The translations under genes and the position numbers were made by a program. A stretch of DNA of 62,800 bases from Rhodothermales bacterium (GTDB lineage Bacteria > Bacteroidota > Rhodothermia > Rhodothermales > UBA10348), in NCBI GenBank assembly GCA_017859335.1, contig JAFMNH010000001.1, positions 1-62,800 of the forward strand. Reading direction: 5' to 3'. Positions within the stretch are counted from its first letter, which is position 1. The number at the start of each line of letters is the position of its first letter. Of this stretch, positions 900 through 19,563 are shown piece after piece. The notes under the pieces are model-generated. The model had not been told where the DNA came from. It ran no database searches and saw only the letters and a list, made by a program, of their open reading frames with translations.

Positions 900-1664
900 C
901 TAATCCAGTAGCACATCAATGCCGTTTTCTTCCAGCATTGATACCGTTTCCCGGGGTGCCTGGGCGTCAGTCACAATTTTGTCAATCTGAGAAGTGTCAC
1001 AAATTTTACTGAACCCCCGGACGCCAAACTTGGATGAATCGGTGACCACAATCACTTCTTGAGCTGCTGCAATCATACACTGATTCAAATCAGCCTCGTG
1101 CGGACTAGACGTCGACAGCCCATGAAGAACATCGAGCCCATCCACCCCAATAAAGAGCTTCCGACATGAAATCTTTTCAACCATCCCAACCGCGCTGGCT
1201 CCTATAACGGAGGTTGAGGTAGCACGGACAATCCCCCCCAACTGAATTATTTGTATTCCCGGGCGATCGACTAGCTCCAGCGTCGCATGAACACAAGCGG
1301 ATACTACGGTCAACTGAGCCAGATGAGGGATGTGACGAGATACCTCAAGAACAGTTGTTCCTGATCCAAGAATGATCGAGTCATTGGCATCGATGAGTTC
1401 CGCCGCTCGTCTGCCGATACTTCTCTTCTTTTCTGCATGTCGTTTAGCCTTCTCTGATAACGGACGGTCGTAGAGCGGGTGGCTTTGGGGATTAGCCCCA
1501 CCATGGGTTCGATGAAGAAGATCTCGGGCCTCAAGACTTCTTAGATCCCTTCGTACCGTAGCCTCCGATACGTTCAGCTCTTCACACAGGTCAATTACGG
1601 TTACATATCCTCGCTGTCGTAATGTTCTTAGGATATGGCTATGCCTTTCCGCTGGTGTTTGCAT
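900..1664 (-). CDS. DeoR/GlpR-family transcriptional regulator
   Basis: N-terminal HTH ILRTLRQRGYVTVIDLCEELNVSEATVRRDLRSLE and a C-terminal DeoR sugar-phosphate-binding domain (GSGTTVLEV...FIGVDGL...VVTDSSKF). Overall it is collinear with E. coli GlpR. Confidence 0.9.
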   Translation of the reverse strand: MQTPAERHSHILRTLRQRGYVTVIDLCEELNVSEATVRRDLRSLEARDLLHRTHGGANPQSHPLYDRPLSEKAKRHAEKKRSIGRRAAELIDANDSIILGSGTTVLEVSRHIPHLAQLTVVSACVHATLELVDRPGIQIIQLGGIVRATSTSVIGASAVGMVEKISCRKLFIGVDGLDVLHGLSTSSPHEADLNQCMIAAAQEVIVVTDSSKFGVRGFSKICDTSQIDKIVTDAQAPRETVSMLEENGIDVLLD

Positions 1665-1951: not shown

Positions 1952-4696
1952 ATGGCTACACCACTCCATACGGTCATCTCATTAGTCCTGATTATTGTTG
2001 TTCAGAGTATCTACGGACTGCCCTCTTTGGCCGATGCTGGTGAGGGTATGTCGGGTAAAATTTCTGGTCGCGTCGTCGAACTGGATAGTGGACAACCAAT
2101 GGTTGGCGCCACGATATACATCGAGGAAGCAGGGATCGGTGCGGTCGCGGCACAAGACGGCAGCTATACCATAATCAACGTCCCCCCTGGTTTATATACC
2201 GTGCGAGCCTCGATGGTTGGTTTTGGGACGGTTCGCAAGGCAGAGGTGCGTGTTTCTATCGATCGTACCACGCGTGTCGATTTCGAATTGGCAGTTGAGA
2301 TCATCCAGGGAGAGGAGGTACTGATAACGGCCACCCGTCCTATTATTGAAGTTGATCGCACGACCTCCGCTTCATACGTCGATTCCGAGGCGATCGAAAA
2401 CCTGCCGGTTCAAGAGGTATCCGACATTTTGCAGTTGCAATCTGGGGTTACCTATGATTCTCAAGGTCGGCTTCATATGAGAGGTGGTCGTTCGGGAGAA
2501 GTCGCGTATTTGGTCGATGGTATTCCCGTGACAAACCAGTACAGTGGCGGCTCCAAGATCGAGATCGAAAACAACTGGATCCAAGAGCTTCAAGTCATAA
2601 GTGGTGTATTCAATGCCGAATACGGCCAAGCTCAGTCGGGTGTTGTAAATATCGTGACTAAGGCAGGGTCAGTGGACCGATACTCAGGCGATGTGGGTGT
2701 TTATGCAGGTTCCTATTTAACATCGAACCCTAATGTCTTCATAGGGAAAGACAGCCCGGCACTCGATGAGGTGAACATACAGGGTAGTTTTCAGGGACCA
2801 CTTCGGTTTTTGCGGGATGGTTCTTTTTTCTCCAATCTCCGGTACACGGACAATTCCGGTTGGTTGAATGGAGAGCGGCGTGCCCTGATAAGTGATACGG
2901 TGCCGATTCAGGCCTACATCCAGCAGGCTCAGCAGACAGCTTCAGACCGGGACAATCTGGTGGGAATCCCGATTCCAGACTCCCTGCTTTCTGGAGATGG
3001 CTCCCTGGTGGCCATGAACCCCAGACAGCGACTGTCTCTTCATGGTCGCCTCTCGTTCCGTCTTGGATCAAAGACGTCCGTAAGCTATGCCGCTTTCGTC
3101 ACGGATGAGGAGCGCAAATCCTATCAGGATTACAGACGGTATGCACCTGACGGTCAACCAACCGTGTCTGACCTCGGGTTCAACCACCTGCTGTCAGTTA
3201 CTCTCGCACCGGATGCCCGATCTTACATGCGTCTGGGGGTCTCCTATCAGAACAACCGGATACGAAGCCGTCTCTTCAGCAACCCATTAGACCCCCAATA
3301 TCAAGGGACGCCCTACGCGACCAATGGATTTGCCTTCGGTGGTACAAGCAATGGAAGATCTAAGGCCTCCAACGCCACATTTCTGGTCAAAATCCAAGGT
3401 GAACGCCAGGTCAATAAGAATAACCTGGTCAAGGCGGGAATAGAGTGGCAAAAACATCGCGTCGAAGAACGCTCTCAGGCTACGATTTCAGATGGCCCTG
3501 TTTATCTGGAGCCCACCCAACGGATACCTGACATCAACACATCCGGTAATGACGCTTACAAGAGGGAGCCTAGTGAATTTGTCGCGTTCATCCAGGACAA
3601 GCTTGAAGTTGATGAGTTGGTCGTCAATGCGGGACTACGATTTGATCTGTGGCGGCCCAATGCTCCCGTTCCTGAAAACCTTCAGGCGGTCACCGACCCG
3701 GATGATGGCATTCGATTGGCCACCGATTTCGTGGACGCTCGGTCCTCGTATCAGCTAAGTCCCCGTGTTGGGTTGGCGTTCCCCATCTCAACCCGGGGGG
3801 TATTACACGTCTCTTATGGCCGTTTCTTTCAGGTACCCCGCTTCTCGTACATTTTTACCAACTCCGAATTTGAGGTGGAGCTCGGAGATTTGGAAACGAT
3901 TATGGGCAACGCCAACCTCAAACCCGAGCGCACGACAGCCTATGAACTGGGTCTTCAGTACGCACTAACCTCTTCATGGAAGATCGAGGCTACGATCTAC
4001 TACAAGGACATCAAAAATCTTCTTGGGCAGGAGATCGTCAACACTGTCGATAAAAAGGTATACGCCAGATACATAAACAGGGACTATGGAAACACGCGAG
4101 GATTCGCTTTTTCCCTACTTCGCCAATTTGCCGACCAGTTCGGTTTGACTATCGACTACACCTACCAAGTCGCTCGCGGAAATGCCTCAGATCCGAATGC
4201 GGTCTTTTTCAACAATCAGACACAGCCTCCGGTAGAACCTGAGAAACAGGTCATCCCGCTCGACTGGGATCAACGCCACTCCCTCAATGGCTCGCTGATT
4301 CTCGGAGACCCTCGCGGGTTCACCCTGAGTATCATCGGCCGCTTCTCCTCTGGACAGCCCTATACGCCGACCAACCCGGGCAGCCAGCTCTCCTCCCAGT
4401 TGGCCAACAGTGAAACCAAGCCTGCCCGACTTAACCTGGACGTGAATATATCCCGCGAGCTACAAGTGGCAGGGTATAAAGCGCGCATTTATGCCAAAGG
4501 GTTCAATGTATTGGATCGACTCAACGCCAAGTCAGTGTACTCCAGCACTGGCAACGCCTTCCATCCATACAGGACCTTGGGAGAAGCAGAGGTTTTGGCC
4601 ATGAATCCGAATTTCAGTTCAGCCGAAGTCGACCTGAGACCCGATTACTTCGATCCACCCCGTCGTATCATCGTCGGGATTGACCTGCGATTTTGA
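1952..4696 (+). CDS. TonB-dependent receptor with N-terminal carboxypeptidase-regulatory-like domain
   Basis: Signal peptide, then a CarbopepD_reg-like segment (GRVVELDSGQPMVGATIYIEE...DGSYTIINVPPGLYTVRASMVGF). Plug motifs follow (LQLQSGV, LHMRGGRSGEVAYLVDGIPV), then a long beta-barrel ending in a terminal aromatic residue (IDLRF). Confidence 0.9.
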   Translation: MATPLHTVISLVLIIVVQSIYGLPSLADAGEGMSGKISGRVVELDSGQPMVGATIYIEEAGIGAVAAQDGSYTIINVPPGLYTVRASMVGFGTVRKAEVRVSIDRTTRVDFELAVEIIQGEEVLITATRPIIEVDRTTSASYVDSEAIENLPVQEVSDILQLQSGVTYDSQGRLHMRGGRSGEVAYLVDGIPVTNQYSGGSKIEIENNWIQELQVISGVFNAEYGQAQSGVVNIVTKAGSVDRYSGDVGVYAGSYLTSNPNVFIGKDSPALDEVNIQGSFQGPLRFLRDGSFFSNLRYTDNSGWLNGERRALISDTVPIQAYIQQAQQTASDRDNLVGIPIPDSLLSGDGSLVAMNPRQRLSLHGRLSFRLGSKTSVSYAAFVTDEERKSYQDYRRYAPDGQPTVSDLGFNHLLSVTLAPDARSYMRLGVSYQNNRIRSRLFSNPLDPQYQGTPYATNGFAFGGTSNGRSKASNATFLVKIQGERQVNKNNLVKAGIEWQKHRVEERSQATISDGPVYLEPTQRIPDINTSGNDAYKREPSEFVAFIQDKLEVDELVVNAGLRFDLWRPNAPVPENLQAVTDPDDGIRLATDFVDARSSYQLSPRVGLAFPISTRGVLHVSYGRFFQVPRFSYIFTNSEFEVELGDLETIMGNANLKPERTTAYELGLQYALTSSWKIEATIYYKDIKNLLGQEIVNTVDKKVYARYINRDYGNTRGFAFSLLRQFADQFGLTIDYTYQVARGNASDPNAVFFNNQTQPPVEPEKQVIPLDWDQRHSLNGSLILGDPRGFTLSIIGRFSSGQPYTPTNPGSQLSSQLANSETKPARLNLDVNISRELQVAGYKARIYAKGFNVLDRLNAKSVYSSTGNAFHPYRTLGEAEVLAMNPNFSSAEVDLRPDYFDPPRRIIVGIDLRF

Positions 4697-7600
4697 TGAT
4701 GAGCATGCGCACAACGGACATGCAGAGGGAAAAAGTCTTGGGTATCACACAACCCCTGGTCAGCGTTTCCGCGTGCCGTTCCATTTTACTAACCCTTCTG
4801 CTATGCTGCCTGTGCGCCCCTTCATCACTATCGGCACAGGACGTTCTGGAATCAGGCCGTGAATTCCGCCGCACTGGGGTCCATGATGGCAATCTGGTTT
4901 TTACCCGCTACTCCAACTATGGTAATCTGGGCAGTCGGTACGAGCCGCCCAAGATGGAATGGCCCAAGGGGTCCGGTCAATGGTATGGATTTGAGTTTGT
5001 GATGATGGCGGGGGCCGAGGTACAAGACGAAGAAGGCCGCTATATCCGCATTGTTTCGGAGAATTACACTAATCCAGGCTCTTTTGACATCAGCCCAGAT
5101 GGCACCCACACCTATGGATGGGAGCCACTGGCCGGATACTTCAATGAAAGCTCGTTCAACGAGCTTGAGTACCCCGCAATGAGTCACCTCGAGGAAACGT
5201 GGCCAGACCCTTGGCCCCATGATTACCCTGGAGATCGGGGAGCAAGGGATGGACTATGGAATGGCGAATTCGGCGCTTTTGAGCGTGCGGATCAGGAGTC
5301 CTATTATGTGATGGATGACCGCAATAATGATGAATTCAACTATTACCCCTTTGTAGGAAGCAGTGCTGATTCATCTGATTACCCGCTGGGCCGACGTGGT
5401 ATAGGTCTTCAGGTGGGTGTTCGTGGTTATCAATGGGTCAACGTACAGGCGGAAGACATTCTTATCGTTCGCTACGATATAACAAACGTCAGCGACAAAG
5501 ACCTGATCAAAGTTGTCTTCGGGATGTATGTCGACCCCGCCGTTGGGGGACAGGGGGATTCGGTGGATGATTTCGCCGACTTTGAACGCCAGGACGATAT
5601 CGTTTACATGTGGGACCGGGATGGCATCGATAACCGAGGGCGCCCGGGTGTCGGATATTTTGGATTCGCCTTCCTTGAAAGCCCAGGAGACCCCCTTGAT
5701 GGCGAGGACAATGATCAGGACGGAATTGCTGACGAAGTACAAGAGAATGAGGCTGGAATTCGTATCGACGGACAGGATGCGATTCTGGCCGAATTATCCT
5801 CCCGTTACCTAATGACGGATTTCGAGAGCTTTTTCGGTAGTCCTACACTGCTGCCTGCAGTGGAGTATGGGCAATGGTGGACAGGAGACGAGGATGCTGA
5901 TTGGGTCCCCTTCAACGACCTGAACGGAGATGGTCTCAAAGAGGATGGGGAGCCGCTCTTGGACGATAAAGGGTCCGATGGTCTAGGTCCAGGAGACGAT
6001 GGTTACCCCGGCCCTGATTCAGACGGCACCGAAAACAACGGCCGTCCAGATCAAGGTGAACCCAACTTTGGAAAAACCGACAACGACGAGTCGGATCAGA
6101 TTGGTCTGACGAGCTATGTCCTTAGACCAGCCGGAAACGTCAGTGATGACGAACGGACCTGGCTTGAAATGGAGCCCAACCGCTTCGGCGGCGAGATGCC
6201 AAGCAACCTCGCCTTTGTTTACGGATCAGGATATTTCTCCCTTCCTCAGGAAGCTACGCGAAAATTTGCCATCGCCTGTCTCTTTGGACGCAATTTCGAT
6301 GACATCCTCCGAAATAAGCGGACCATGCAGAAGATCTATGATGCCGATTACTCCTTCGCAAAGCCTCCAAACAAGTCGAAGCTAACCGCCGTGGCCGGAG
6401 ATCAATCGGCTGTCCTGATGTGGGATAATATCGCCGAGTTTTCCAGGGATCCCATCTACGGAACGGACTTTGAGGGGTACATGATCTATCGCGCGACGGA
6501 TCCCTCTTTCAATTCCATCAAGACAATCACTGACGCCTTTGGGAACCCGATTCTCTGGCAGCCAATCGCGCAATTTGATCTGGATAATGGGCTTAAGGGA
6601 CCTCATCCCGTTCAGATCGGCGAAACGGGGGCTGTCTTTAACACTGGTACAGACTCTGGGCTACGCTACTACTACCAAGATTCAGGCTTGGATAATGGCC
6701 GATCTTATTACTACGCCCTGGTACCCTACGACGCCGGATATGATGTGGATTTCTTTGACCGAGGCATTTCAACCCGGGACAAACTCACACCCATCGCTCC
6801 CAGTGAAGCCTCTAAAATCATCCAGACCGATCTGATCGGAAATGTGACTTTTGTTGACCGCAATACCGCTGTTGTGGTGCCCAATGCCCCGGCTGCTGGG
6901 GTTGTACTGGGAGGATTTGACGGTGATATTGCTCATGAAGGCCCTGGTACCGGCGTTGTTGAAGTAGAGGTAGTCGTACCAGACAGCCTGGAGCAGGGAG
7001 CACAATATCGGATCTCCTTTACTGATACCACCAAGGCCTTGTTGACGCGCGGCGTGCGCATCGACGAGCTCACGAGAAACCAAGTTATCTACGAAGCGGC
7101 CGAATTTGACAGCGTGGACCTTTCCCGCCGATTGTTGGGAGGTATGAATTTCAGGATTTACAGTCCACCAGAGCCTATTCCTACAACCTTCGGTTGGCAA
7201 GACGGCGCATCGAACCTTTCTGCCTCAATAGACCTGGTCGAATCCGGGCGTACGGTCCCCATTCCGGACGATATTGAAATACGAATAGGCGCTCCTGGCG
7301 TGGATTCCTCATTTGTGCAGTTCGCTTTCGAACAACGTACGCCCGTCAATTTTGAGGTTTATGGTGCGACCACAGGGCGCAAATACCAGTTTATTTTCGA
7401 GGAGACGGAGAGTCCTGATGGACTGTTGAGCCCCGGCGATCTGATCACACTCGTATTTGATCCTGTTGGGTTCCGGTTCAACCTGGGCTGGCGATTCCGC
7501 TTTGATGCTCCTGACGGGGAGGCTCCCAGGCTCCCGGAACCGGGAGATGTGTACCGACTGGATGTGAGTAAACCATTTTCCTCACTCGACATCATCTCAT

Positions 7601-7962
7601 TCTCAACCATTGAGACCCGGTTTGAAAATGAAAAGGCCAAAGATGACCTTTCCAATATTTACGTCGTGCCTGACCCGTATGTGGCTAGCGCGTCTTGGGA
7701 GCGCCCCTTGTTCAATGCATCAGGAAGAGGTGAACGCCGCATAGACTTTGTAAATCTACCTCCTCAGTGTACGATTCGAATATTCAATACGGCCGGGAAA
7801 CTGGTTCAAGTATTACACCACGACTCTCCATTTGAAGATGGATCAGAGAGTTGGGATCTCGTCTCAAAGGACGGTCTGACTGTCGCCTTTGGTGTGTATT
7901 TCTTTCACGTTGAAACGCCTGATTCGGGCGAGACGACCGGCAAATTCACGCTCATAAAATGA
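4693..7962 (+). CDS. Large secreted protein (1089 aa) with acidic Ca-binding-like repeats and a T9SS-type C-terminal sorting domain
   Basis: Signal-like N-terminus. D-rich DxDxDG-type stretches occur at nt about 5690-6105 (DGEDNDQDGIADE; NDLNGDGLKEDGEPLLDDKGSDGLGPGDDGYPGPDSDGTENNGRPDQGEPNFGKTDNDESDQ). An FN3-like segment is present (RYYYQDSGLDNGRSYYYALVPYD). The C-terminus IRIFNTAGKLVQVL...GVYFFHVETPDSGETTGKFTLIK is CTD-like. The start overlaps the TBDT stop by 4 nt. Confidence 0.85.
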   Translation: MMMSMRTTDMQREKVLGITQPLVSVSACRSILLTLLLCCLCAPSSLSAQDVLESGREFRRTGVHDGNLVFTRYSNYGNLGSRYEPPKMEWPKGSGQWYGFEFVMMAGAEVQDEEGRYIRIVSENYTNPGSFDISPDGTHTYGWEPLAGYFNESSFNELEYPAMSHLEETWPDPWPHDYPGDRGARDGLWNGEFGAFERADQESYYVMDDRNNDEFNYYPFVGSSADSSDYPLGRRGIGLQVGVRGYQWVNVQAEDILIVRYDITNVSDKDLIKVVFGMYVDPAVGGQGDSVDDFADFERQDDIVYMWDRDGIDNRGRPGVGYFGFAFLESPGDPLDGEDNDQDGIADEVQENEAGIRIDGQDAILAELSSRYLMTDFESFFGSPTLLPAVEYGQWWTGDEDADWVPFNDLNGDGLKEDGEPLLDDKGSDGLGPGDDGYPGPDSDGTENNGRPDQGEPNFGKTDNDESDQIGLTSYVLRPAGNVSDDERTWLEMEPNRFGGEMPSNLAFVYGSGYFSLPQEATRKFAIACLFGRNFDDILRNKRTMQKIYDADYSFAKPPNKSKLTAVAGDQSAVLMWDNIAEFSRDPIYGTDFEGYMIYRATDPSFNSIKTITDAFGNPILWQPIAQFDLDNGLKGPHPVQIGETGAVFNTGTDSGLRYYYQDSGLDNGRSYYYALVPYDAGYDVDFFDRGISTRDKLTPIAPSEASKIIQTDLIGNVTFVDRNTAVVVPNAPAAGVVLGGFDGDIAHEGPGTGVVEVEVVVPDSLEQGAQYRISFTDTTKALLTRGVRIDELTRNQVIYEAAEFDSVDLSRRLLGGMNFRIYSPPEPIPTTFGWQDGASNLSASIDLVESGRTVPIPDDIEIRIGAPGVDSSFVQFAFEQRTPVNFEVYGATTGRKYQFIFEETESPDGLLSPGDLITLVFDPVGFRFNLGWRFRFDAPDGEAPRLPEPGDVYRLDVSKPFSSLDIISFSTIETRFENEKAKDDLSNIYVVPDPYVASASWERPLFNASGRGERRIDFVNLPPQCTIRIFNTAGKLVQVLHHDSPFEDGSESWDLVSKDGLTVAFGVYFFHVETPDSGETTGKFTLIK

Positions 7963-9020
7963 CGTTTCGTGGATTCATAGCCATGTTCGCCATCCCCGCT
8001 GCGTTCTTAACGCCGGTGGCGATTGCGCAGGAAGTGGACTCTCCTCCAGCCAATTTTGTGGAGGATGTGTCCAATGCAGGAACGAGTGCAGCAGCTTTCT
8101 TGCAGATCGGCGTTGGGGCGCGTGCCATGGCCATGGGCAATGCGGGTACAACCCTTGCAAGGGATGCAACGGCGTTATATTGGAATCCGGCTGGCGTAGC
8201 CTCATTAACCTCCCAAGCGGCTGTTACATTCGACCATACCGACTGGCTTGTTGATACCAAGCTGGACTATGTTGGTATGGCGTTTCGGGTGCCGGGTGTT
8301 GGAGCGCTGGGACTGAGCGTATTGGCATTTGATGCTGTGGACGAACAACCAGTACGTACCATTCTTCAACCTGAAGGTACCGGAGAGTTCTACAGCGCAT
8401 CGGATATGATGATGGGGTTGACCTATGCAACAGCGCTAACAAATCGTTTTTCCGCTGGCATAACAGGCAAATACATCCGAGAAACCCTTTGGAATGAATC
8501 GGCCAGGGCATTCGCTGTTGATTTGGGCATTCTGTATCAGACAAAGCTGGACGGCTTCACTTTGGCTGCCAGCATCCTCAATTTTGGAGGCAACATGCGG
8601 CTTGAGGGTCGAGATCTGCGAAGAGCTTTTGATGATGACCCCAAAAACTTTAGTAATAACCAGCTGAATGTGAGTCTTGATACGGATCAGTTTTCGATCC
8701 CGCTGACCTTCAGATTTGGCTTCGGTTACGAAACCAAGATCACAGACTATCACCGAATCACACTAGCCGCCGATCTGACTAACCCCTCGGATAACAATGA
8801 ATCGGTGAATCTTGGACTCGAATACACTTTTGGCAATACCCTCTCCCTTCGCGGGGGATACGCAGCGCTCTTTGAGCGAGATCGTGTAAGTGGGCTGTCC
8901 TTTGGAGTCGGCGTTGATCGCAGGCTCCTGGATCGCGTTCGGGTTGTAGCCGAGTATTCCTACGCTGACATGGGCTTTCTTGGGGCTGCCCAACGTTTTA
9001 CCCTTGGCGTCGGACGATAA
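7959..9020 (+). CDS. PorV/PorQ-family outer-membrane beta-barrel protein
   Basis: Signal peptide plus the family signature near the N-terminus (AGTSAAAFLQIGVGARAMAMGNAGTTLARDATALYWNPAGVA). The rest has an alternating beta-strand pattern. The start is an ATGA overlap with the upstream gene. Confidence 0.8.
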   Translation: MTFRGFIAMFAIPAAFLTPVAIAQEVDSPPANFVEDVSNAGTSAAAFLQIGVGARAMAMGNAGTTLARDATALYWNPAGVASLTSQAAVTFDHTDWLVDTKLDYVGMAFRVPGVGALGLSVLAFDAVDEQPVRTILQPEGTGEFYSASDMMMGLTYATALTNRFSAGITGKYIRETLWNESARAFAVDLGILYQTKLDGFTLAASILNFGGNMRLEGRDLRRAFDDDPKNFSNNQLNVSLDTDQFSIPLTFRFGFGYETKITDYHRITLAADLTNPSDNNESVNLGLEYTFGNTLSLRGGYAALFERDRVSGLSFGVGVDRRLLDRVRVVAEYSYADMGFLGAAQRFTLGVGR

Positions 9021-9044
9021 CCAGAAGCACTTTTCGTACCACAA

Positions 9045-12005
9045 ATGAGAAAGACGATGAAAAGATGGCTATTCCTCACAGCACTGATGATGGTCGTGGG
9101 ATCCCTTTCCACGACGTCAGCTCAGCAGGCGCTGATATTCAATGAGATTCTTGCGGATCCGGCATCCGATACGCCCGGTGATTCAAACGGAGACGGTACG
9201 CGTAGTTCGTCTGAGGATGAGTTCGTGGAACTGGCAAACGTCAGCGCAGACACCCTCGACCTGACGGGATGGATGTTGGGAGACGATGAAGCCATCAACT
9301 TTACATTTCCCGAGGGATATAAACTTCCCCCAAGACACCTGATCGTTGTTTTTGGCGGCGGAAACGTAACAAATGTTGATGGTTACGATCCTGATCCTTT
9401 GGTAACCCGCGTGTTCAGTGCAGACAGTACCGTCGGAAACGGTTTGGCTAACGGTGGGGAATATGTGGTTCTGAAGTCACCGGATGGGTCGGCTGATGCA
9501 TACGCGGCCTATGGATCCAAAACAGGGGCGGGTGCTCCTGCAACGGCAGCAACCGATGGCATTACCTTTGAATTTGGAACGGATATTACGCCAGCAGCCA
9601 ATGCGGATGAGGCGGTAACCCGGTCTCCTGATGGTAACGTCACGGATGCGGAACCCTGGGTCTTACACTCCTCTGTAAGCTCGGCTTTGTTTTCTCCAGG
9701 CCAGACGGCCAATGGGCTCTCTGTGATTCCAAAGCCCCCACCAACGTTGACGGTAATCATCAACGAGGTGTTAGCAGATCCTGCATCTGGAGATGCTGGT
9801 GATGCCAATGGAGATGGAACACGAAGCTCGTCAGAAGACGAATTTGTGGAATTGGCGAACGTGTCATCCGATCCGGTTGACCTGTCGGGATGGATGCTGG
9901 GAGATGACGAGGCCGTCAACTTTACCTTCCCTGACGGCTACATCATGGCTCCAAGAAGTTTCCTTGTTGTGTTTGGCGGAGGAGATGTTTCAGGCGTTGA
10001 TGGATACAACGTGGACCCCCTTCTCACCCGCGTTTTCAGTGCGGATAGTACTGTTGGCAACGGTCTTGCAAATGGGGGAGAAATAATTCTACTTCATTCG
10101 CCAGATGGGTCCTACGATACATGGCTTGCCTATGGAAGCAAGTCTGGAACCGGTGGGCCACCAAATACGGATGATTACGAAGTTCAAATTGATGTTTCGG
10201 CGGCAGCTAATGCAGACAACAGCATTACGCGATATCCGGACGGTAATACGAATATCGTAGATCCTTTTGTTCAGCATTTGACGGTTGCCAATGCCGCATT
10301 CTCGCCCAACACCACCGTGGATGGTCGATCCACGGTACCGCCACCACAGCCACAGCTGACGGTGGTTATTAACGAAGTATTGGCTGATGCTACAGGGGCT
10401 GGAGACGCAAACGGTGATGGCGTCATCAGTGCCACGGAAGATCAGTTCATCGAGATTGTTAACACGAGTGAGGAAGATGCTGTTGACCTTGGGGGGTGGC
10501 ACGTTGGAGATGAAGGTGGACTCTCGTTTGCCTTCCCGTCGGGTTATTCCCTCGCTCCTCAGGCCATGGTGGTCGTTTTTGGAGGTGGAGATGTATCCAA
10601 TGTGCCCGGCTATGATGCGGACCCCATGCTCACGCGAGTTTTTGCTGCCACCGGTTCTATAGGTGACGGAATGGATGCATCTGGAGACTTCGCAGTCGTC
10701 CTCTCCAGCGATGGATCCTACGACTCATATGTTGCCTTTGGGTCAAAGGTTGGAACTGGAGATCCAATGGTTTCAGATGCTCCCGGCGAGGAATGGGAAT
10801 TCGCTATTGGTACGGCTTCCGCCGCCGATCAGCAGTCGTCGATCACACGGGATCCTGACGGTAACTTCTTGTCCCAGGATCCATTTGTGCTTCATTCGTC
10901 AGTCAGCGAAATGGCATATTCGCCTGCTCAGACGATAGACGCCCTTAACTCACTTGATGATTTTGTCGATGTACCCCACCCTTGGGGTAGCGGCCATGCA
11001 CTGCATTTCACGTGGTGGGAGCGGGATCGTGTCGAGATTCGGGACGCAGCGGCCCTCTTTCCACTGCAGATGGACCAAGGTACCATTGAGCTCTGGTTCC
11101 GGCCTGATTCTTTGCTGACGAACGATACGCACGACCCCGACTTTACCTACTTGTTCGGAAAGAATCTCGGGGGAAACAATCCGGGAGATCTGGGTCTGGG
11201 TTGGCGCCGAGGAGAGGGGCGTATGCTATTCTTCATGCAGGATGGCGTCAACACAACCAACCTGGAAAGCAGTGCCAAGGTGGATGAAGAGTACTATCCG
11301 CGTTGGTACCATGTAGCCGTCACATGGAATACTGCCGATTCGATGCGCATTTTCATCGATGGCGTTCATACTGCTGCCATACAGTCCGACATCTCCTTGC
11401 TTGGTGGAACCATGGCAATGGCTCTTGGCAATGGTGCTGAAGACCTCTGGAATGATCGTTACGAAGCATTTAGGGGAATGATCGACGAGGTCCGTGTATC
11501 TGTGGTTGAGCGGTATACGACGGATTTTGAGCTTCCCACAGAGCCCTATGTGTCGGATGCTCTCACGTTGGCCCTGTGGCACTTTGATGAGGGAAGCGGA
11601 GAAGTTGCGGCAGACGCCTCTGGTAATGGATTCACAGGATCTCTGGGAGGATTCGACTCGGAGGGTAATCCAGATCCAGCCTCAGCACCTTCCTGGGTGG
11701 ACGTTGCGACACTTGTTTCAACGGCTACGGAGGAGCTACCTCTCCAGTATGAGTTGCTCCAGAACTATCCGAATCCGTTCAATCCCACGACAGCCATCGA
11801 GTACATGGTGCCAGCAACGTCCAACGTTGAAATCCATGTATTCAATGTGTTGGGCCAGCGGGTGACAACATTGGTCTCAGGTGAGCACGCACCGGGCATG
11901 CATCGGGTAACATTTGATGCTTCTCGGTATGCTAGTGGAATGTACTTCTACACCCTTCGTGCGGGTACGACCTTCTTGACTCAGAAGATGATGCTGATCA
12001 AGTAG
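9045..12005 (+). CDS. Secreted protein with 3x lamin-tail domain (LTD), a LamG/concanavalin-like domain and a T9SS C-terminal sorting domain
   Basis: Three units of about 200 aa each start (I/V)(F/I)NE(I/V)LADP...GDxNGDG...EDEFVEL(A/V)N and contain L(T/S)GWMLGD...F.FP.GY...VVFGGG. A LamG-like region follows (IELWFRPDS...WYHVAVTWN...IFIDG...IDEVRVS). The C-terminus is QNYPNPFNPTTAIEY...GMYFYTLRAG...MMLIK. Confidence 0.9.
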   Translation: MRKTMKRWLFLTALMMVVGSLSTTSAQQALIFNEILADPASDTPGDSNGDGTRSSSEDEFVELANVSADTLDLTGWMLGDDEAINFTFPEGYKLPPRHLIVVFGGGNVTNVDGYDPDPLVTRVFSADSTVGNGLANGGEYVVLKSPDGSADAYAAYGSKTGAGAPATAATDGITFEFGTDITPAANADEAVTRSPDGNVTDAEPWVLHSSVSSALFSPGQTANGLSVIPKPPPTLTVIINEVLADPASGDAGDANGDGTRSSSEDEFVELANVSSDPVDLSGWMLGDDEAVNFTFPDGYIMAPRSFLVVFGGGDVSGVDGYNVDPLLTRVFSADSTVGNGLANGGEIILLHSPDGSYDTWLAYGSKSGTGGPPNTDDYEVQIDVSAAANADNSITRYPDGNTNIVDPFVQHLTVANAAFSPNTTVDGRSTVPPPQPQLTVVINEVLADATGAGDANGDGVISATEDQFIEIVNTSEEDAVDLGGWHVGDEGGLSFAFPSGYSLAPQAMVVVFGGGDVSNVPGYDADPMLTRVFAATGSIGDGMDASGDFAVVLSSDGSYDSYVAFGSKVGTGDPMVSDAPGEEWEFAIGTASAADQQSSITRDPDGNFLSQDPFVLHSSVSEMAYSPAQTIDALNSLDDFVDVPHPWGSGHALHFTWWERDRVEIRDAAALFPLQMDQGTIELWFRPDSLLTNDTHDPDFTYLFGKNLGGNNPGDLGLGWRRGEGRMLFFMQDGVNTTNLESSAKVDEEYYPRWYHVAVTWNTADSMRIFIDGVHTAAIQSDISLLGGTMAMALGNGAEDLWNDRYEAFRGMIDEVRVSVVERYTTDFELPTEPYVSDALTLALWHFDEGSGEVAADASGNGFTGSLGGFDSEGNPDPASAPSWVDVATLVSTATEELPLQYELLQNYPNPFNPTTAIEYMVPATSNVEIHVFNVLGQRVTTLVSGEHAPGMHRVTFDASRYASGMYFYTLRAGTTFLTQKMMLIK
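9129..10940 (+). repeat. Three tandem intragenic repeats of about 600 bp encoding the LTD units (about 9129-9719, 9747-10340, 10356-10940)
   Basis: Protein repeats 1 and 2 are near-identical over long stretches (GDGTRSSSEDEFVELANVS, LTRVFSADSTVGNGLANGGE). Their DNA differs at many third-codon positions. Repeat 3 is more diverged. Confidence 0.8.
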
Positions 12006-12008
12006 AAC

Positions 12009-14000
12009 ATGACCCGTGCTCGATTCCAGCTCATGTTTGTCACAGCTCTGTTCGTCCTGTCCGCTGGCCACGAGGCCAGCGGACAGGCAACAGCTGTTCT
12101 CTTCAGGTATCTGCCTGAGGGAGCCTCTCTTTCCTCATCCGTAATTACGAATAATGTAGAGGAGGGCCCTTTTCTGGACCCTGTCGAGTTCGCCGCACGG
12201 AATCCAGGAGGGTGGGGAATGACAGCGCCCAGCACGGCTGAGTTTGAATCTGATCAATCCACAATTCGAAGCCAAGAAACGGAATCATTTTCGCAACCAT
12301 TGGGACCACAGTTCTCGATGGAGATTTGGTTTCGAGGTCAAGAATCAGGGCAGACGTCTACGTTGTTTTCCAATCGGGTGGATTCCAGTGAAGGGTTCAC
12401 CGTCGGTCTAAGCGGTGATGTGCCCTACTTCGAATTCGCAATCCAGGGCGCGACGTATCGCCTGCTTGCAGATCAACCGGTGGCAACGGAAACCAATGTT
12501 TGGATTGCAGCAACGCTAAAGTATTGGCAAGGAACGCTCACGCTGCGGCTATTCGTGGATGGCGTTTCGCAGTCAGAGCAATCGGTTTCGGTCTCAATTC
12601 CAAGTCCGTACACCTTTGCCCATCCTGTCATGATCGGATCCACTGCCTCAGGGGATCCCGCTAATCCGTCACTGGCAGGCACCTTTACCGGTCACATCTT
12701 TGCGGCCAGTGTTAAAGCCTATGAGGTGCCGGAGGAATATGTGACCTCTGGAGTCCCTCATGATGGTGGCCCCTACTTCGGTCTTCCCTCCTACCATGAT
12801 TACGACCTTGATGACCAACGCCTTCCAGCTGATCTGAGAATTCAGTCGTCTCCCGTTGAAATCAAGAAGCGGTTCTTCCTGCCTTATGCCAATGACCTTT
12901 ACATTCCTCAAGGCACGGCTTCCCGGGTAGAAAGTACCGAGGATGGGAGCACACCCTTTGTGTACGTTTCGTATTACCATCGCACCCGACTCGGCACGAT
13001 AGGCTTACAACATTCCATTGTGGCGGAAATCAATGCCGAGACGGGTACCGTGCGCCGGGCCTTTCGGTTGATGGGTCAGCTGTCGCACTCTCATGTGGGT
13101 GGCGTAGCTTATTCACACGGAGCGCTGTATATCTCTTCAGAAAGTATCCTGGAGCGTTATCCGCTACCTGAGTGGGAACCCTCGAATCCGCAGAAATACC
13201 TCGATTTGGAAGCCGATCCCGACGGGACCATCCAGACCCCTTCAAAGGCTTCCTTCGTATCGGCCTTCCAGGATACGCTTTGGGTTGGGGACTATCGCAC
13301 GTCGTCCGATGTTGCTCCCTACCTGTTTGCACATGCTCTAGATGAGCAGGGACGCCCCAATCCAACCCCGTCGCATCGATTCCCTCTACCCAGACGAATT
13401 CAAGGTGTTGATTTGATCGACGGCCCGCGAGGCACGGTTGTGGTTCTCTCCAGAAACAGAACCTCAACCACGGCCGAGTTGCTGCGCTACCGACGCGAAG
13501 ATTTGTCGTCTTCCTTTCTGGTTAATCCAGACTCTGTCATCATCATGCCGCATGGAATCGAAGATCTTTCGTTCTTTCCTGACGGATCGCTTTGGACCAA
13601 TTCGGAATCCGGAACCGATTACTATCAGCGCAAATCGAGCGGCGCTTGGTCCAGCTTCTATCCGTTCGTCTACAGTATTCCTGCGTCATCTGTGCTGGGT
13701 TCTCCCATGCCTACCAGCAGTGAACACATTCCTGTAAAGGCGAATCTGGACGTGGACGTCTTTCCGAACCCATTCAATGACACTCTCAGCATCTTCTTGA
13801 AGAGCCAGCACACGGAAGCTGTATCGGTCTACATTTTCGATGTTCTAGGGCGACGCATCGCCACGTTAGCCGAGAATACCCTGTCGAGTAGGCCGTTGGA
13901 ATTTCAGTGGGATGCTACACGCGTTCCTGCCGGGGCATACTTCACCCTTATTCAAAGCGGGAAGAATAGGATCGTCACCCCGATCGTTCGGGCAGAATGA
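12009..14000 (+). CDS. Secreted protein with an N-terminal LamG-like domain, a central beta-propeller-like region and a T9SS C-terminal sorting domain
   Basis: Signal peptide MTRARFQLMFVTALFVLSAGHEASGQ. LamG-like motifs are present (MEIWFRGQESGQTSTLFSN...WIAATLKY...LFVDG). The central part has repeated blade-like motifs (HVGGVAYSHGALYISS, LWVGDY, IQGVDLIDG, HGIEDLSFFPDGSLWTNSE). The C-terminus is VFPNPFNDTLSIFL...VYIFDVLGRRIATL...GAYFTLIQSG. Confidence 0.85.
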   Translation: MTRARFQLMFVTALFVLSAGHEASGQATAVLFRYLPEGASLSSSVITNNVEEGPFLDPVEFAARNPGGWGMTAPSTAEFESDQSTIRSQETESFSQPLGPQFSMEIWFRGQESGQTSTLFSNRVDSSEGFTVGLSGDVPYFEFAIQGATYRLLADQPVATETNVWIAATLKYWQGTLTLRLFVDGVSQSEQSVSVSIPSPYTFAHPVMIGSTASGDPANPSLAGTFTGHIFAASVKAYEVPEEYVTSGVPHDGGPYFGLPSYHDYDLDDQRLPADLRIQSSPVEIKKRFFLPYANDLYIPQGTASRVESTEDGSTPFVYVSYYHRTRLGTIGLQHSIVAEINAETGTVRRAFRLMGQLSHSHVGGVAYSHGALYISSESILERYPLPEWEPSNPQKYLDLEADPDGTIQTPSKASFVSAFQDTLWVGDYRTSSDVAPYLFAHALDEQGRPNPTPSHRFPLPRRIQGVDLIDGPRGTVVVLSRNRTSTTAELLRYRREDLSSSFLVNPDSVIIMPHGIEDLSFFPDGSLWTNSESGTDYYQRKSSGAWSSFYPFVYSIPASSVLGSPMPTSSEHIPVKANLDVDVFPNPFNDTLSIFLKSQHTEAVSVYIFDVLGRRIATLAENTLSSRPLEFQWDATRVPAGAYFTLIQSGKNRIVTPIVRAE

Positions 14001-15517: not shown

Positions 15518-15524
15518 AAGTCAC

Positions 15525-18687: not shown

Positions 18688-19563
18688 ATGCAAAAGCGTT
18701 TCCGCATCTTTTCCTACCTCTTCATGGCGTGCCTGATCGGCTGTTCGTCTGTTACTGAATATGATCTTCAGGGACATCGCGGTGCCAGGGGCCTGCTTCC
18801 AGAAAATTCAGTCCCAGGATTTTTGCTGGCTCTTGAGTACGGGGTGGACACCATTGAGATGGACGTGGTCGTGTCGGCTGATTCGCATGTCGTCGTATCC
18901 CATGAACCCTGGATGTCACCGGAAATATGCTCTCATCCGGATGGCACGGTCGTCGGTGAGGAAGAGGCCATGTCGCTCAATCTATTTACGATGCCCTATG
19001 AGCGCATTGCCCTCTTTGACTGCGGATCAAGGGGTAACGAACGCTTTCCAGAGCAGGAACCGCTGTCCGTAGTGAAGCCCCTTCTGGCGGATGCCCTCAG
19101 AGCTGTCGAATCGGCAGCAGAGACACCCGTTCGGTACAACATCGAAATCAAGTCCAGGAAAGAAGGCGATGGCGTGTTCCATCCGGATGTAGACACCTTT
19201 GCCAGCTTGGTCCACCAGGTTATCGACGAATACGAGCTAATGGATCGCACGACGATCCAGTCATTTGATCCACGTTCGCTCGAGTCCTATCACCGCATCG
19301 CACCGCAGGCAACGCTTGCTTTGCTGGTCAGCAATGAATGGGGGTTTCAAGCCAATATGGACCGACTCAGCTTTCTTCCCCAGATTTACAGTCCGAATCA
19401 TCGCCTTGTCGATCGTGCGCTCGTGGATTCTGTACATTCAGCGGGGTTGACGATCGTACCCTGGACCATAAACGAGACGGCGCGAATGCGTGAGCTTCTC
19501 GATCTTGGTGTAGATGGACTGATTACTGACTATCCTGATCGAGCGAAAGCCATGGCCAACTGA
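18688..19563 (+). CDS. glpQ: Glycerophosphodiester phosphodiesterase, lipoprotein
   Basis: Lipobox CLIGCSS. GDPD motifs HRGARGLLPENSVPGF...GVDTIEMDVVVSAD..VVSHEP, and a C-terminal VDGLITDYPD. Confidence 0.9.
   Translation: MQKRFRIFSYLFMACLIGCSSVTEYDLQGHRGARGLLPENSVPGFLLALEYGVDTIEMDVVVSADSHVVVSHEPWMSPEICSHPDGTVVGEEEAMSLNLFTMPYERIALFDCGSRGNERFPEQEPLSVVKPLLADALRAVESAAETPVRYNIEIKSRKEGDGVFHPDVDTFASLVHQVIDEYELMDRTTIQSFDPRSLESYHRIAPQATLALLVSNEWGFQANMDRLSFLPQIYSPNHRLVDRALVDSVHSAGLTIVPWTINETARMRELLDLGVDGLITDYPDRAKAMAN

What the first reader, a model, noticed from the sequence alone, without database searches (positions are those of the whole stretch)
1952..9020. TonB-dependent receptor, 1089-aa acidic-repeat cargo and a dedicated PorV/PorQ-like barrel are translationally coupled
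Both junctions are ATGA overlaps. PorV is normally a single housekeeping shuttle for T9SS cargo. Here a PorV/PorQ-family paralogue is encoded directly after a CTD-bearing cargo and a TBDT, with no SusD-like partner.

This resembles the cargo-adjacent PorP/SprF arrangement known for type-B CTD proteins, but uses a PorV/PorQ-type barrel. It suggests a dedicated outer-membrane complex that tethers the 1089-aa protein next to its transporter. The D-rich DxDxDG-type tracts of that protein (nt about 5690-6105) suggest Ca-dependent folding.
Basis: partly seen in the sequence, partly recalled or inferred. Interest (0 to 1): 0.65.

Follow-up and report, generated by a model that had tools for sequence, protein, structure and literature searches.

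The report
TonB transporter, giant surface protein, PorV-like anchor
Three tightly linked genes (an outer-membrane TonB-dependent importer, a conserved uncharacterised 1,088-residue secreted protein and its own PorV-like barrel) form a cassette that recurs in hundreds of genomes of Bacteroidota-related phyla, appears to take the place of the well-known SusC/SusD nutrient-capture pair, and here heads an operon for glycerol-phosphate compounds.

Summary
The three ORFs are real: TBDT 1952-4696, a 1088/1089-aa protein ("MID") 4696/4693-7962, and a PorV/PorQ-family barrel 7959-9020. Only the second junction is an ATGA overlap. The first is TGATG (1 nt), or TTGA with the TTG start.

The trio is not a chance placement. 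At least 592 loci in species-representative genomes encode a MID relative. In the 80 loci fetched, 62 of 91 MID genes have a TBDT directly upstream and a barrel directly downstream. Most exceptions are contig ends. Several genomes carry 2-4 cassettes.

The barrel scores 218 bits on the PorV/PorQ family model (cutoff 90). It fails the PorV, PorQ and PorV2 equivalog cutoffs, as do 10 barrels from other cassettes.

MID has no Pfam domain. It consists of a signal peptide, a beta-supersandwich with an acidic insert, Ig/Fn3-like domains and a C-terminal beta-sandwich homologous to T9SS CTDs. That CTD is unusually conserved.

The trio heads a transcribed 11-gene operon with GlpK, GlpD, a lipoprotein GDPD, GlpF and GlpT. 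A paralogous cassette sits in a glycoside-hydrolase locus.

My best reading is a SusD-less, T9SS-dependent uptake core. Physical tethering of MID to the barrel remains untested.

The parts
900..1664 (-). Divergently transcribed DeoR/GlpR-type repressor
   Evidence: HTH_DeoR plus DeoRC domains. The best NCBIfam hits are AgaR and GlpR, both below the equivalog cutoffs. A DeoR gene sits in the same position in L001, L006, L008, L009 and L015.
1952..4696 (+). TonB-dependent transporter, 914 aa, with signal peptide, N-terminal CarboxypepD_reg domain, plug and barrel. It is not SusC/RagA.
   Evidence: Pfam hits: PF13620, PF07715 and PF00593. TIGR04056 SusC/RagA scores 58.7 bits against a cutoff of 368. 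PDB matches are limited to the plug regions of CirA, YncD and PqqU. The protein ends in ...DLRF.
4696..7962 (+). 'MID': a 1088-aa secreted protein of an uncharacterised family (alternative TTG start at 4693)
   Evidence: No Pfam family. 1545 homologues, all named 'hypothetical', at 43-93% identity over the full length across phyla. The family has 549 clusters at 50% identity with E<=1e-30. AF2 full-length model: pLDDT 72.
4858..6375 (+). MID N-terminal core (residues 55-560): a beta-supersandwich interrupted by the acidic insert
   Evidence: AF2 model of residues 50-562: pLDDT 84.3, pTM 0.85. Foldseek gives only weak matches (E 2.5e-4 to 1e-2, TM about 0.3) to the non-catalytic N-terminal supersandwich domains of GH94, GH116 and cyclic glucan synthase, to PL26, to YidC P1 and to mutarotase-like proteins. 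The core has many invariant acidic and aromatic residues.
5686..6105 (+). Acidic insert (residues 331-470), probably Ca2+-binding, with DxDxDG-type motifs
   Evidence: 39 D/E against 6 K/R. DNDQDG at residue 338 and DLNGDG at residue 408. Most of the insert is conserved; residues 353-384 are not. AF2 models it as ordered loops with pLDDT mostly 67-96.
6376..7620 (+). MID Fn3/Ig-like beta-sandwich domains: residues 561-740 conserved, residues 741-975 variable
   Evidence: AF2 secondary structure and pLDDT 82-94. Foldseek matches FN3 stacks. Mean pairwise identity is 62% for residues 561-740 and 38% for residues 741-975.
7657..7959 (+). MID C-terminal T9SS-CTD-like beta-sandwich (residues 988-1088) with a conserved inserted loop (residues 994-1013)
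   Evidence: hhalign against neighbouring type-A CTDs: probability 95.3%, E 2.3e-8. The best natural PDB profile hits are the PorU CTD (E 1.3e-3) and the PorZ CTD (E 0.026). Pfam hits are sub-threshold: FlgD_ig in 25/34 members, CHU_C in 21/34, Por_Secre_tail in 13/34. Mean pairwise identity is 58.5%, against 31.5% for the partner proteins' CTDs. The loop at residues 994-1013 has pLDDT below 50 although its sequence is conserved.
7959..9020 (+). PorV/PorQ-family outer-membrane barrel, 353 aa, cassette-specific subfamily
   Evidence: NF033709 scores 218 bits (cutoff 90). PorV scores 91/250, PorV2 83/325 and PorQ 73/220. Pfam PorV E 2.4e-11. F. johnsoniae PorV 6h3i_F E 3.9e-6. It is the only PorV-family ORF in the window. 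870 homologues were found.
9045..12005 (+). Secreted protein with three LTD modules, a LamG domain and a T9SS type-A CTD (986 aa)
   Evidence: PF00932 in 3 stretches, PF13385, and PF18962 at 37 bits against a cutoff of 27. Present in 25 of 25 orthologous loci.
12009..14000 (+). Secreted protein with LamG, an unassigned central region and a T9SS type-A CTD (663 aa)
   Evidence: PF13385, and PF18962 at 37.3 bits. No PDB relative by sequence. Present in 25 of 25 orthologous loci.
13997..15517 (+). SurA/PpiD-like lipoprotein (506 aa)
   Evidence: Rotamase_2 at 28.2 bits (cutoff 27), plus a weak SurA_N_3 hit. Lipobox LVAC|SD. A homologue follows the barrel in many cassettes: 14/25 orthologous loci and 17/37 paralogous loci.
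15441..17036 (+). Glycerol kinase GlpK (longest ORF; the HMM match starts at residue 32)
   Evidence: TIGR01311 scores 743.5 bits against a cutoff of 590.
17029..18642 (+). Glycerol-3-phosphate dehydrogenase (GlpD-type)
   Evidence: DAO plus DAO_C domains. NF008899 scores 297 bits, below the cutoff of 360.
18688..19563 (+). Glycerophosphodiester phosphodiesterase with a lipoprotein signal, so extracytoplasmic
   Evidence: PF03009 at 116.5 bits. N-terminus MQKRFRIFSYLFMACLIGC|S.
19584..20348 (+). MIP-family glycerol facilitator (GlpF-like)
   Evidence: PF00230. TIGR00861 scores 188.9 bits against a cutoff of 171.
20258..21688 (+). Glycerol-3-phosphate transporter GlpT (longest ORF; the HMM match starts at residue 30)
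   Evidence: TIGR00712 scores 689 bits against a cutoff of 632.55.

Best explanation
The three genes encode the outer-membrane core of a SusD-less, PUL-like nutrient-uptake cassette that is widespread in FCB-group phyla outside the classical Bacteroidia.

Proposed mechanism:
1. The TBDT is the TonB-energised import channel.
2. [quoted passage not shown]
3. MID's CTD is not discarded. It is retained on the cassette's own PorV/PorQ-family barrel, in the way that PorU stays on PorV and PorZ stays on PorQ. This fixes MID on the cell surface beside the TBDT.
4. MID carries a Ca2+-stabilised beta-supersandwich head on an Ig/Fn3 stalk. It would capture substrate and hand it to the TBDT, which is the role played by SusD and the surface glycan-binding lipoproteins in Bacteroides.

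In this window's orthologous group the cassette serves glycerol-phosphate compounds, such as glycerophosphodiesters from lipid head groups or teichoic-acid-like poly(glycerol phosphate). The imported diester would be cut by the lipoprotein GDPD in the periplasm. Glycerol-3-phosphate would enter through GlpT and be oxidised by GlpD. Glycerol would enter through GlpF and be phosphorylated by GlpK. The whole locus would be controlled by the divergent DeoR/GlpR-type repressor.

Shown here: the gene content, the conservation of the trio, the family assignments, transcription in situ, and CTD homology with unusual CTD conservation.

Inferred, not shown: secretion by T9SS, CTD retention on the barrel, contact with the TBDT, a binding rather than enzymatic role for MID, and the identity of the substrate.
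For: Recurrence:
- TBDT, a protein of about 1050 aa with no Pfam hit, and a PorV-like barrel lie in the same order in Rhodothermales, Calditrichota and other MAGs.
- At least 592 loci in species-representative genomes encode a MID relative.
- 62 of 91 MID genes have both neighbours on the same strand. Most of the rest are cut by contig ends.
- Barrels are present in 24/25 orthologous loci and 35/37 paralogous loci.

Multiple cassettes per genome:
- JAKQNR01 has at least 4 barrels. L066 has two cassettes in tandem.
- Barrels within one genome are only about 40% identical.

Barrel classification:
- It matches PorV_fam but falls below the PorV, PorQ and PorV2 cutoffs. This holds in the window and in 10 other cassettes.

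MID C-terminal domain:
- It is homologous to type-A CTDs at hhalign probability 95.3%.
- The best natural PDB hits are the PorU and PorZ CTDs.
- It is as conserved as the protein core, at 65% mean pairwise identity against 38% for residues 741-975.
- It is far more conserved than the ordinary CTDs of the neighbouring cargo, 58.5% against 31.5%.
- It contains a conserved loop that AF2 cannot place in the monomer.
- Tandem MIDs that share one barrel have CTDs 73-75% identical. CTDs paired with different barrels in one genome are 42-50% identical.

MID head:
- It is a supersandwich of the kind found as non-catalytic domains in carbohydrate-active enzymes. No catalytic fold was recognised.

Uptake context:
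- The window has glp genes with an extracytoplasmic GDPD and a bona fide GlpT.
- GlpD lies within 10 kb in 18/25 orthologous loci and in 0/37 paralogous loci.
- The paralogous cassette of Rosettibacter primus lies among an amylase-CTD protein, a CBM9-CTD protein, two GH3, a GH5, a ROK kinase and an SSF transporter.

Transcription:
- Contigs from 6 metatranscriptome runs span both junctions.
- They show a reproducible non-flat depth profile, whereas DNA runs are flat.

Precedent:
- Retained CTDs on PorV and PorQ, and PorP/SprF for type-B cargo: PMC10202324.
- A FadL-like barrel acting as a platform for surface proteins (BamG): PMC12578637.
Against: - No direct evidence of a CTD-barrel or MID-TBDT contact.
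- The mirror-tree test gives only partial r = 0.18 for CTD against barrel once the MID core is controlled for. That is less than for the variable region, at 0.52.
- The CTD is below the gathering threshold of every T9SS CTD model, so T9SS dependence is inferred.
- Three fetched loci (L030, L032, L033) have TBDT and MID but no barrel within the flank. L042 has a different gene order.
- The many invariant acidic residues and one invariant histidine (H63) in the MID core would also fit an enzyme.
- The barrel fold itself was not modelled here.
- No core T9SS gene lies in the window.
- The number of PorV-family genes in this genome could not be counted.
Confidence: 0.55

Rival explanations
1. The barrel is a FadL-type channel rather than an anchor. 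It would admit a hydrophobic or amphipathic part of the substrate (fatty acids, lysolipids) in parallel with the TBDT. MID would be an ordinary T9SS cargo attached to LPS or released.
For: PorV belongs to the FadL clan. There are weak Toluene_X/FadL hits in the window barrel (E 8.1e-5, below cutoff) and in L072. The glycerolipid-related context of this orthologous group would suit uptake of lipid breakdown products.
Against: The same barrel subfamily accompanies cassettes in plainly glycan-directed loci with GH3, GH5, amylase and CBM9 genes. The best model by far is PorV_fam, matched over its full length. The unusual conservation of the MID CTD is left unexplained.
Confidence: 0.12
2. The barrel and the SurA-like lipoprotein are biogenesis factors. 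They would be needed to secrete, fold or insert MID and/or the TBDT, like PorP/SprF for type-B cargo secretion or BamG with surface PPIases. They would not be stable parts of the working uptake complex.
For: A SurA/PPIase-like lipoprotein follows the barrel in many cassettes. In Bacteroidota, BAM contains a FadL-like barrel and PPIase lipoproteins (PMC12578637). There is a weak BamG hit (32 bits). CHU_C (type-B CTD) is the best single-sequence Pfam hit for the window's own MID CTD; across 34 family members FlgD_ig is the more frequent and stronger hit.
Against: The BamG score is far below its cutoff (32 against 250). One dedicated barrel per cassette, diverged to about 40% identity within a genome, suggests a specific stoichiometric partner rather than a general factor. 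In known cases secretion and anchoring are not mutually exclusive, PorP/SprF being an example.
Confidence: 0.18
3. The barrel is simply the genome's housekeeping PorV (or PorQ), placed here by chance.
For: It is the only PorV-family gene in the 62.8-kb window. The rest of the genome could not be inspected.
Against: It scores 91 against 250 for PorV and 73 against 220 for PorQ. Synteny with MID is strict across phyla. Some genomes hold several copies, each beside a MID gene.
Confidence: 0.02
4. The TBDT works outwards, like Myxococcus Oar, which is required for secretion of the protease PopC. On this view it exports MID or another locus product.
For: The N-terminal CarboxypepD_reg architecture and weak Oar-like OMP_b-brl_4 hits in orthologues. 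An Oar precedent exists (PMC6434023, listed).
Against: MID carries a T9SS-type CTD and has its own PorV-like partner. The loci are built like catabolic uptake loci, with inner-membrane transporters and cytoplasmic catabolic enzymes.
Confidence: 0.03

Closest known systems
SusC/SusD (and PusC/PusD) outer-membrane pairs of Bacteroidota polysaccharide and phosphate utilisation loci
   Same: A TBDT with an N-terminal CarboxypepD_reg domain is followed immediately by the gene for a surface partner. The pair heads a substrate-specific catabolic locus and occurs in several diverged copies per genome. PusCD loci likewise combine the pair with periplasmic phosphodiesterases and inner-membrane organophosphate transporters (PMC8115612).
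   Different: The TBDT fails the SusC/RagA model (58.7 against 368 bits). There is no SusD-fold lipoprotein. The partner is a protein of about 1050 aa with a Sec signal peptide (no conserved lipobox) and a T9SS-type CTD, plus a third obligatory gene for a PorV-family barrel.
PorZ-PorQ and PorU-PorV (T9SS attachment complex of Porphyromonas gingivalis)
   Same: A PorV/PorQ-family barrel is paired with a large surface protein whose CTD is kept rather than cleaved. That is the precedent; here it is the proposed mechanism. The MID CTD profile finds the PorU and PorZ CTDs as its best natural PDB matches.
   Different: The barrel is not the PorV or PorQ equivalog. The partner has no PorZ beta-propellers or PorU peptidase domain. 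The pair is linked to a TBDT and to catabolic genes, not to the secretion machinery, and it is multi-copy.
PorP/SprF-like barrels encoded next to type-B CTD cargo (for example SprB-SprF)
   Same: The gene for a dedicated outer-membrane barrel lies next to its cargo gene, and the proposed role is anchoring and/or secretion (PMC10202324). There are weak CHU_C (type-B) hits in 21/34 MID CTDs.
   Different: No PorP/SprF family hit was found for the barrel. It belongs to the PorV/PorQ family. The CTD aligns with type-A CTDs and does not reach the type-B threshold.
E. coli glpTQ / glpFK / glpD regulon under GlpR
   Same: GlpT, an extracytoplasmic GDPD, GlpF, GlpK, GlpD and a DeoR-family repressor are all present.
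   Different: Here they form a single operon behind an outer-membrane TBDT cassette and two T9SS cargo proteins. This implies active capture of the substrate at the cell surface.

Membership tests
PorV/PorQ family (NCBIfam NF033709) | Full-length match to the family HMM above the curated cutoff | tested here: met
   218 bits against a cutoff of 90, covering model positions 1-324 of 326. Ten other cassette barrels score 177-224 bits.
PorV/PorQ family (NCBIfam NF033709) | 14-stranded FadL-like beta-barrel fold | not tested
The only evidence is sequence homology to F. johnsoniae PorV 6h3i_F (E 3.9e-6).
PorV proper (T9SS shuttle, NF033710 equivalog) | Score at or above the equivalog cutoff | tested here: not met
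   91.4 bits against 250. Other cassette barrels score 51-81 bits.
PorQ (NF033711 equivalog) and PorV2 (NF052325) | Score at or above the equivalog cutoff | tested here: not met
   PorQ 72.7 against 220; PorV2 83 against 325. The other cassettes give the same result.
PorV/PorQ-type anchor | Binds the CTD of a T9SS protein at the cell surface | not testable with these tools
The co-divergence test was inconclusive.
T9SS type-A CTD (PF18962 / TIGR04183) | C-terminal domain reaches the family threshold | tested here: inconclusive
   Por_Secre_tail scores 12.4 bits against 27, and 13/34 family members hit at E<=1. However, hhalign against bona fide type-A CTDs of the same loci gives probability 95.3%, E 2.3e-8, and AF2 gives a C-terminal beta-sandwich.
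T9SS type-B CTD (PF13585 CHU_C) | C-terminal domain reaches the family threshold | tested here: not met
   19.9 bits against 27. 21/34 members hit at E<=1, best E 8.6e-4.
T9SS cargo | Secretion depends on the T9SS, and the genome encodes the core machinery | not testable with these tools
   No core T9SS gene lies in the window. Other ORFs in the window carry PF18962 CTDs above threshold, which implies that a T9SS exists.
TonB-dependent transporter | Plug domain plus 22-stranded barrel domain | tested here: met
   PF07715 at 44.3 bits and PF00593 at 93.7 bits, both above cutoff.
SusC/RagA (TIGR04056) | Score at or above the cutoff, and an adjacent SusD-family gene | tested here: not met
   58.7 bits against 368. 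No SusD-family hit in any neighbour.
glp regulon | GlpK and GlpT equivalogs; GlpD, GDPD, GlpF and a DeoR-type regulator | tested here: met
   GlpK 743.5 against 590 and GlpT 689 against 632.55. GDPD and MIP are above the Pfam cutoffs. GlpD-type is below the equivalog cutoff (297 against 360) but has DAO plus DAO_C. DeoR domains are present.

The most novel reading that the evidence does not exclude
This is a third architecture for TonB-dependent nutrient capture, distinct from TBDT-only systems and from SusC/SusD lipoprotein pairs. A conserved surface protein of about 1000 aa is exported by the T9SS and held by permanent retention of its CTD on a dedicated PorV-family barrel. Together with the TBDT it would form a three-protein 'utilisome' core. 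This core diversified into many substrate specificities in Rhodothermota, Ignavibacteriota, Calditrichota, Marinimicrobia and KSB1. It would make the T9SS a structural prerequisite for nutrient uptake in these phyla.
Probability: 0.4. Interest if true: 0.85.

Novelty: new variant of a known kind. Interest (0 to 1): 0.72.

Why it matters
SusC/SusD pairs define how Bacteroidota feed, and they are the basis of PUL prediction. The sister phyla are abundant in marine sediments, the dark ocean, hot springs and saline waters. They are usually described as having TBDTs without SusD, and their uptake loci are poorly annotated.

A conserved TBDT-MID-barrel trio would matter in four ways:
- It gives a searchable marker for such loci. 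There are at least 592 loci in species-representative genomes, and MID has no Pfam or NCBIfam model.
- It assigns a role to a large family of 'hypothetical' proteins.
- It extends the known principle of cognate barrels for retained CTDs (PorZ-PorQ, PorU-PorV, PorP/SprF) from the secretion machinery to nutrient acquisition.
- It links T9SS function to carbon and phosphorus cycling.

The window's version also points to active outer-membrane capture of glycerol-phosphate compounds. It is transcribed in environmental metatranscriptomes, and at least one cultured carrier exists for experiments.

Tried and rejected
1. AF2 of a fused chain (MID CTD, Gly-Ser linker, mature barrel) with a paired alignment of 27 cassette pairs (A2). 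There is therefore no interface prediction.

2. Mirror-tree / partial Mantel test on 71 pairs. CTD against barrel, given the MID core, gives r = 0.18. This is significant by permutation but small, and lower than for the variable region at 0.52. I treat it as inconclusive.

3. Sequence searches of the PDB with the MID profile, the LTD protein and the LamG protein. None returned an informative hit.

4. Foldseek with the full-length MID model. It returned only FN3 stacks plus PorZ and PorU at low TM. The N-domain had to be modelled separately, and even then only weak supersandwich matches resulted. No enzyme fold was recognised.

5. Promoter and terminator scan of 1600-21590. Counts were at or below chance, so it is uninformative for operon limits.

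6. Literature searches for the trio or for cargo-adjacent PorV-like barrels with TBDTs. Nothing describing this arrangement was found.

7. A count of PorV/PorQ paralogues in this genome was not possible.

8. The reading of the barrel as housekeeping PorV was rejected on HMM cutoffs and copy number.

Full report
OBSERVATION

The TBDT runs 1952-4696 (914 aa). The middle protein runs 4693-7962 (1089 aa from TTG 4693, or 1088 aa from ATG 4696). The barrel runs 7959-9020 (353 aa).

The second junction is a genuine ATGA overlap, with ATG at 7959-7961 and TGA at 7960-7962. The barrel start gives a proper signal peptide.

The first junction is not ATGA. The TBDT stop is TGA 4694-4696, and the next gene starts at TTG 4693 (TTGA) or ATG 4696 (TGATG). 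Further in-frame ATGs lie just downstream.

In relatives with database gene calls, the two junctions show gaps of 9-65 nt. The overlap is kept only in close relatives. With longest-ORF calling, 12 of 74 MID-to-barrel junctions are -4. Tight linkage is therefore conserved, but overlap is not.

IDENTITIES

The TBDT has a CarboxypepD_reg domain, a plug and a barrel. It fails the SusC/RagA model at 58.7 against 368 bits. By sequence it resembles solved TBDTs only in the plug.

The barrel matches the general PorV/PorQ family model over its whole length, at 218 bits against a cutoff of 90. It falls far short of the equivalog models for PorV (91/250), PorV2 (83/325) and PorQ (73/220). Ten barrels from other cassettes, other phyla and paralogous groups behave the same way. 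It is the only PorV-family ORF in the window. No SusD-family protein is encoded anywhere in the window.

THE MIDDLE PROTEIN (MID)

MID has no Pfam family. It has 1545 homologues, all named 'hypothetical', at 43-93% identity over the full length. They come from Rhodothermales, Ignavibacteria/Melioribacteraceae, Marinimicrobia, KSB1 and others. An exhaustive HMMER search finds 549 clusters at 50% identity with E<=1e-30 and 1927 with E<=1e-10.

AF2 on the full length gives pLDDT 72. AF2 on residues 50-562 gives pLDDT 84 and pTM 0.85. Together they show the following parts:
- a signal peptide;
- conserved Fn3/Ig-like domains;
- a variable pair of beta-sandwiches (residues 741-975, only 38% mean identity);
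- a C-terminal beta-sandwich.

Foldseek finds only weak matches for the head, at E 2.5e-4 to 1e-2 and TM about 0.3. These are to the non-catalytic N-terminal supersandwich domains of GH94 and GH116 enzymes, cyclic glucan synthase, PL26, the YidC P1 domain and mutarotase-like proteins. No catalytic fold is recognised.

THE C-TERMINAL DOMAIN

Standard models see the C-terminal domain only below threshold: PorZ C-terminus E 8e-4, CHU_C 7.9e-4, FlgD_ig 0.12 and Por_Secre_tail 0.21. Per family member, FlgD_ig hits 25/34, CHU_C 21/34 and Por_Secre_tail 13/34 at E<=1.

A profile-profile comparison gives a clearer answer. Against the bona fide type-A CTDs of the LTD/LamG proteins from the same loci, it returns probability 95.3% and E 2.3e-8 over motifs D-E. 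Designed WD-repeat proteins score better in the PDB profile search but only through a repeated short motif. Leaving those aside, the best natural PDB hits of the CTD profile are the CTDs of PorU (E 1.3e-3) and PorZ (E 0.026). These are the two T9SS proteins whose CTDs are known to be retained on PorV and PorQ (PMC10202324).

The domain is as conserved as the protein core, at 65% mean pairwise identity. It is much more conserved than the neighbours' ordinary CTDs, at 58.5% against 31.5%. Its inserted loop (residues 994-1013...ASWEKPLF..SGRGERR...) is conserved, yet AF2 leaves it below pLDDT 50 in the monomer. That pattern is expected for a segment that orders on a partner.

RECURRENCE

Look-ups of barrel homologues returned the same order each time: TBDT, then a no-Pfam protein of about 1050 aa, then the barrel. 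This held on a 1.75-Mb Rhodothermales contig, in Calditrichota-type MAGs and in a close relative.

A scan of one genome per species found at least 592 loci encoding a MID relative. In the 80 loci fetched, 62 of 91 MID genes have a TBDT directly upstream and a barrel directly downstream on the same strand. Most of the rest are truncated by contig ends.

The exceptions are these:
- L030, L032 and L033 have TBDT and MID followed by arrays of LTD proteins, with no barrel in the flank.
- L042 has a different gene order.
- L044 and L047 have two tandem MID genes before one barrel.

Several genomes hold more than one cassette, for example JAKQNR01, JABWBP01 and the tandem pair in L066. Within one genome the barrels are about 40% identical and the CTDs 42-50% identical. 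Tandem MIDs that share one barrel have CTDs 73-75% identical.

The trio recurs, and the barrel is not a lone housekeeping copy.

A mirror-tree test did not single out the CTD as the barrel's co-evolving partner, with partial r = 0.18. I count this as inconclusive.

The trio is followed, without strand change and with very short gaps, by these genes:
- a protein with three LTD modules, a LamG domain and a type-A CTD (9045-12005);
- a protein with LamG and a type-A CTD (12009-14000);
- a SurA/PPIase-like lipoprotein (13997-15517; lipobox LVAC|SD);
- GlpK;
- a GlpD-type dehydrogenase;
- a GDPD with a lipoprotein signal;
- a GlpF-like channel;
- GlpT.

A DeoR/GlpR-type regulator is transcribed divergently. 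GlpK and GlpT pass their equivalog cutoffs.

In the orthologous group (MID score of at least 1200 bits), 18 of 25 loci have GlpD within 10 kb, and all 25 have both LTD/LamG proteins. In paralogous groups, 0 of 37 have GlpD or GDPD, while 35 of 37 keep the barrel and 33 of 37 the TBDT.

The paralogous cassette of the cultured Rosettibacter primus lies among an amylase-CTD protein, an SSF transporter, a CBM9-CTD protein, a ROK kinase, two GH3, an esterase and a GH5.

The trio is thus a general chassis, and the surrounding genes set the substrate.

EXPRESSION

Six metatranscriptome runs from a freshwater study hold the locus at 99% identity or more, with assembled contigs that span both junctions. 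Their depth profile is reproducibly stepped: about 8-10 over the TBDT and most of MID, 21-38 over the barrel and the two CTD proteins, and 2-7 over the glp genes. Two DNA runs are flat at about 8.8. The locus is therefore transcribed in situ, and the three genes lie on continuous RNA-derived contigs. Contig depth is a crude measure, and the position of the step is not resolved.

MECHANISM

I think the most likely reading is an outer-membrane uptake core. The TBDT imports. MID is secreted by the T9SS and acts as the surface capture component. The PorV-family barrel holds MID by its retained CTD next to the transporter.

For this orthologous group, the substrate is most simply a glycerol-phosphate diester or polymer. 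It would be cleaved by the lipoprotein GDPD after import, and the products would then follow the standard GlpT/GlpD and GlpF/GlpK routes.

The closest functional analogues are SusCD and, for organophosphates, the PusCD loci of Flavobacterium (PMC8115612). The closest mechanistic precedents for the barrel are PorQ-PorZ, PorV-PorU and PorP/SprF with type-B cargo, and BamG as a platform for surface proteins.

The contact itself, T9SS dependence, a binding rather than enzymatic role for MID, and the substrate are all inferences.

Rival readings are a FadL-like channel, a biogenesis factor working with the SurA-like lipoprotein, an Oar-like exporter, and a chance housekeeping PorV. The last is effectively excluded.

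NOVELTY

I found no paper describing this arrangement, and neither Pfam nor NCBIfam has a model for MID. It combines two known principles, TBDT-plus-surface-partner loci and cognate barrels for retained CTDs, in a way not described before. I therefore rate it a new variant of a known kind, of considerable interest if the tethering is confirmed.

Noticed in passing
window 1-52 and 222-866: The window starts with the 3' part of a tRNA gene (Rfam RF00005, 31.7 bits, cut at its 5' end). An ORF follows that carries only the N-terminal SAM-like domain of a tyrosine recombinase. This could be the remnant of an integration site directly upstream of the DeoR/TBDT locus.
   Followed up: no
window 1-30000 versus 30000-62800: G+C is 0.50-0.53 over the first 30 kb, which holds the whole cassette and glp operon. 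It is 0.56-0.61 over the rest. Together with the tRNA and integrase remnant, this may mark a horizontally acquired island.
   Followed up: no
window about 5200-14600: In six metatranscriptome runs, contig depth rises 2-4 fold somewhere between the 3' half of MID and the barrel start. It stays high through the two LTD/LamG-CTD genes, then drops over the glp genes. DNA runs are flat. An internal promoter or differential mRNA stability could explain this; neither was tested.
   Followed up: partly
window 13997-15517; homologues after the barrel in many loci (e.g. L037, L048, L053, L062, L081): A SurA/PpiD-like lipoprotein of about 500 aa is a frequent fourth member of the cassette. The pairing of a FadL-clan barrel with a PPIase-like lipoprotein recalls BamG with BamJ/K of the Bacteroidota BAM complex.
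   Followed up: partly
L044 9812-16872 and L047 6297-13339: These loci have two tandem MID paralogues, 67% identical overall with CTDs 73-75% identical. They lie between one TBDT and one barrel, which suggests two surface proteins sharing one anchor.
   Followed up: partly
L030, L032, L033 (KSB1-type loci); L042; L021: Variant layouts occur. L030, L032 and L033 have TBDT and MID followed by arrays of 4 LTD-type proteins, with no barrel in the flank. L042 has the order TBDT, barrel, LTD, MID. L021 has the barrel and the LTD protein in one long ORF, either a fusion or a sequencing artefact.
   Followed up: no
window 21864-25199 (-): A GH81 (beta-1,3-glucanase-type) protein with PKD, CBM6 and a T9SS CTD-like tail lies convergent with the end of the glp operon. 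Another PKD-CTD protein lies at 32709-34373. Both Por_Secre_tail scores are just below the Pfam cutoff.
   Followed up: no
window 41898-55210: This region is a dense signalling cluster. It holds several hybrid histidine kinases and response regulators, a 1524-aa Cache/HAMP/PAS hybrid kinase, a Ser/Thr kinase with TPR repeats, and a ClpB-like AAA+ protein.
   Followed up: no
window 55189-56130 (-) and 56188-61158 (-): A class-A beta-lactamase-family protein (PF13354, 159 bits) lies next to a 1656-aa S8 subtilase with CarboxypepD_reg and Fn3 domains.
   Followed up: no
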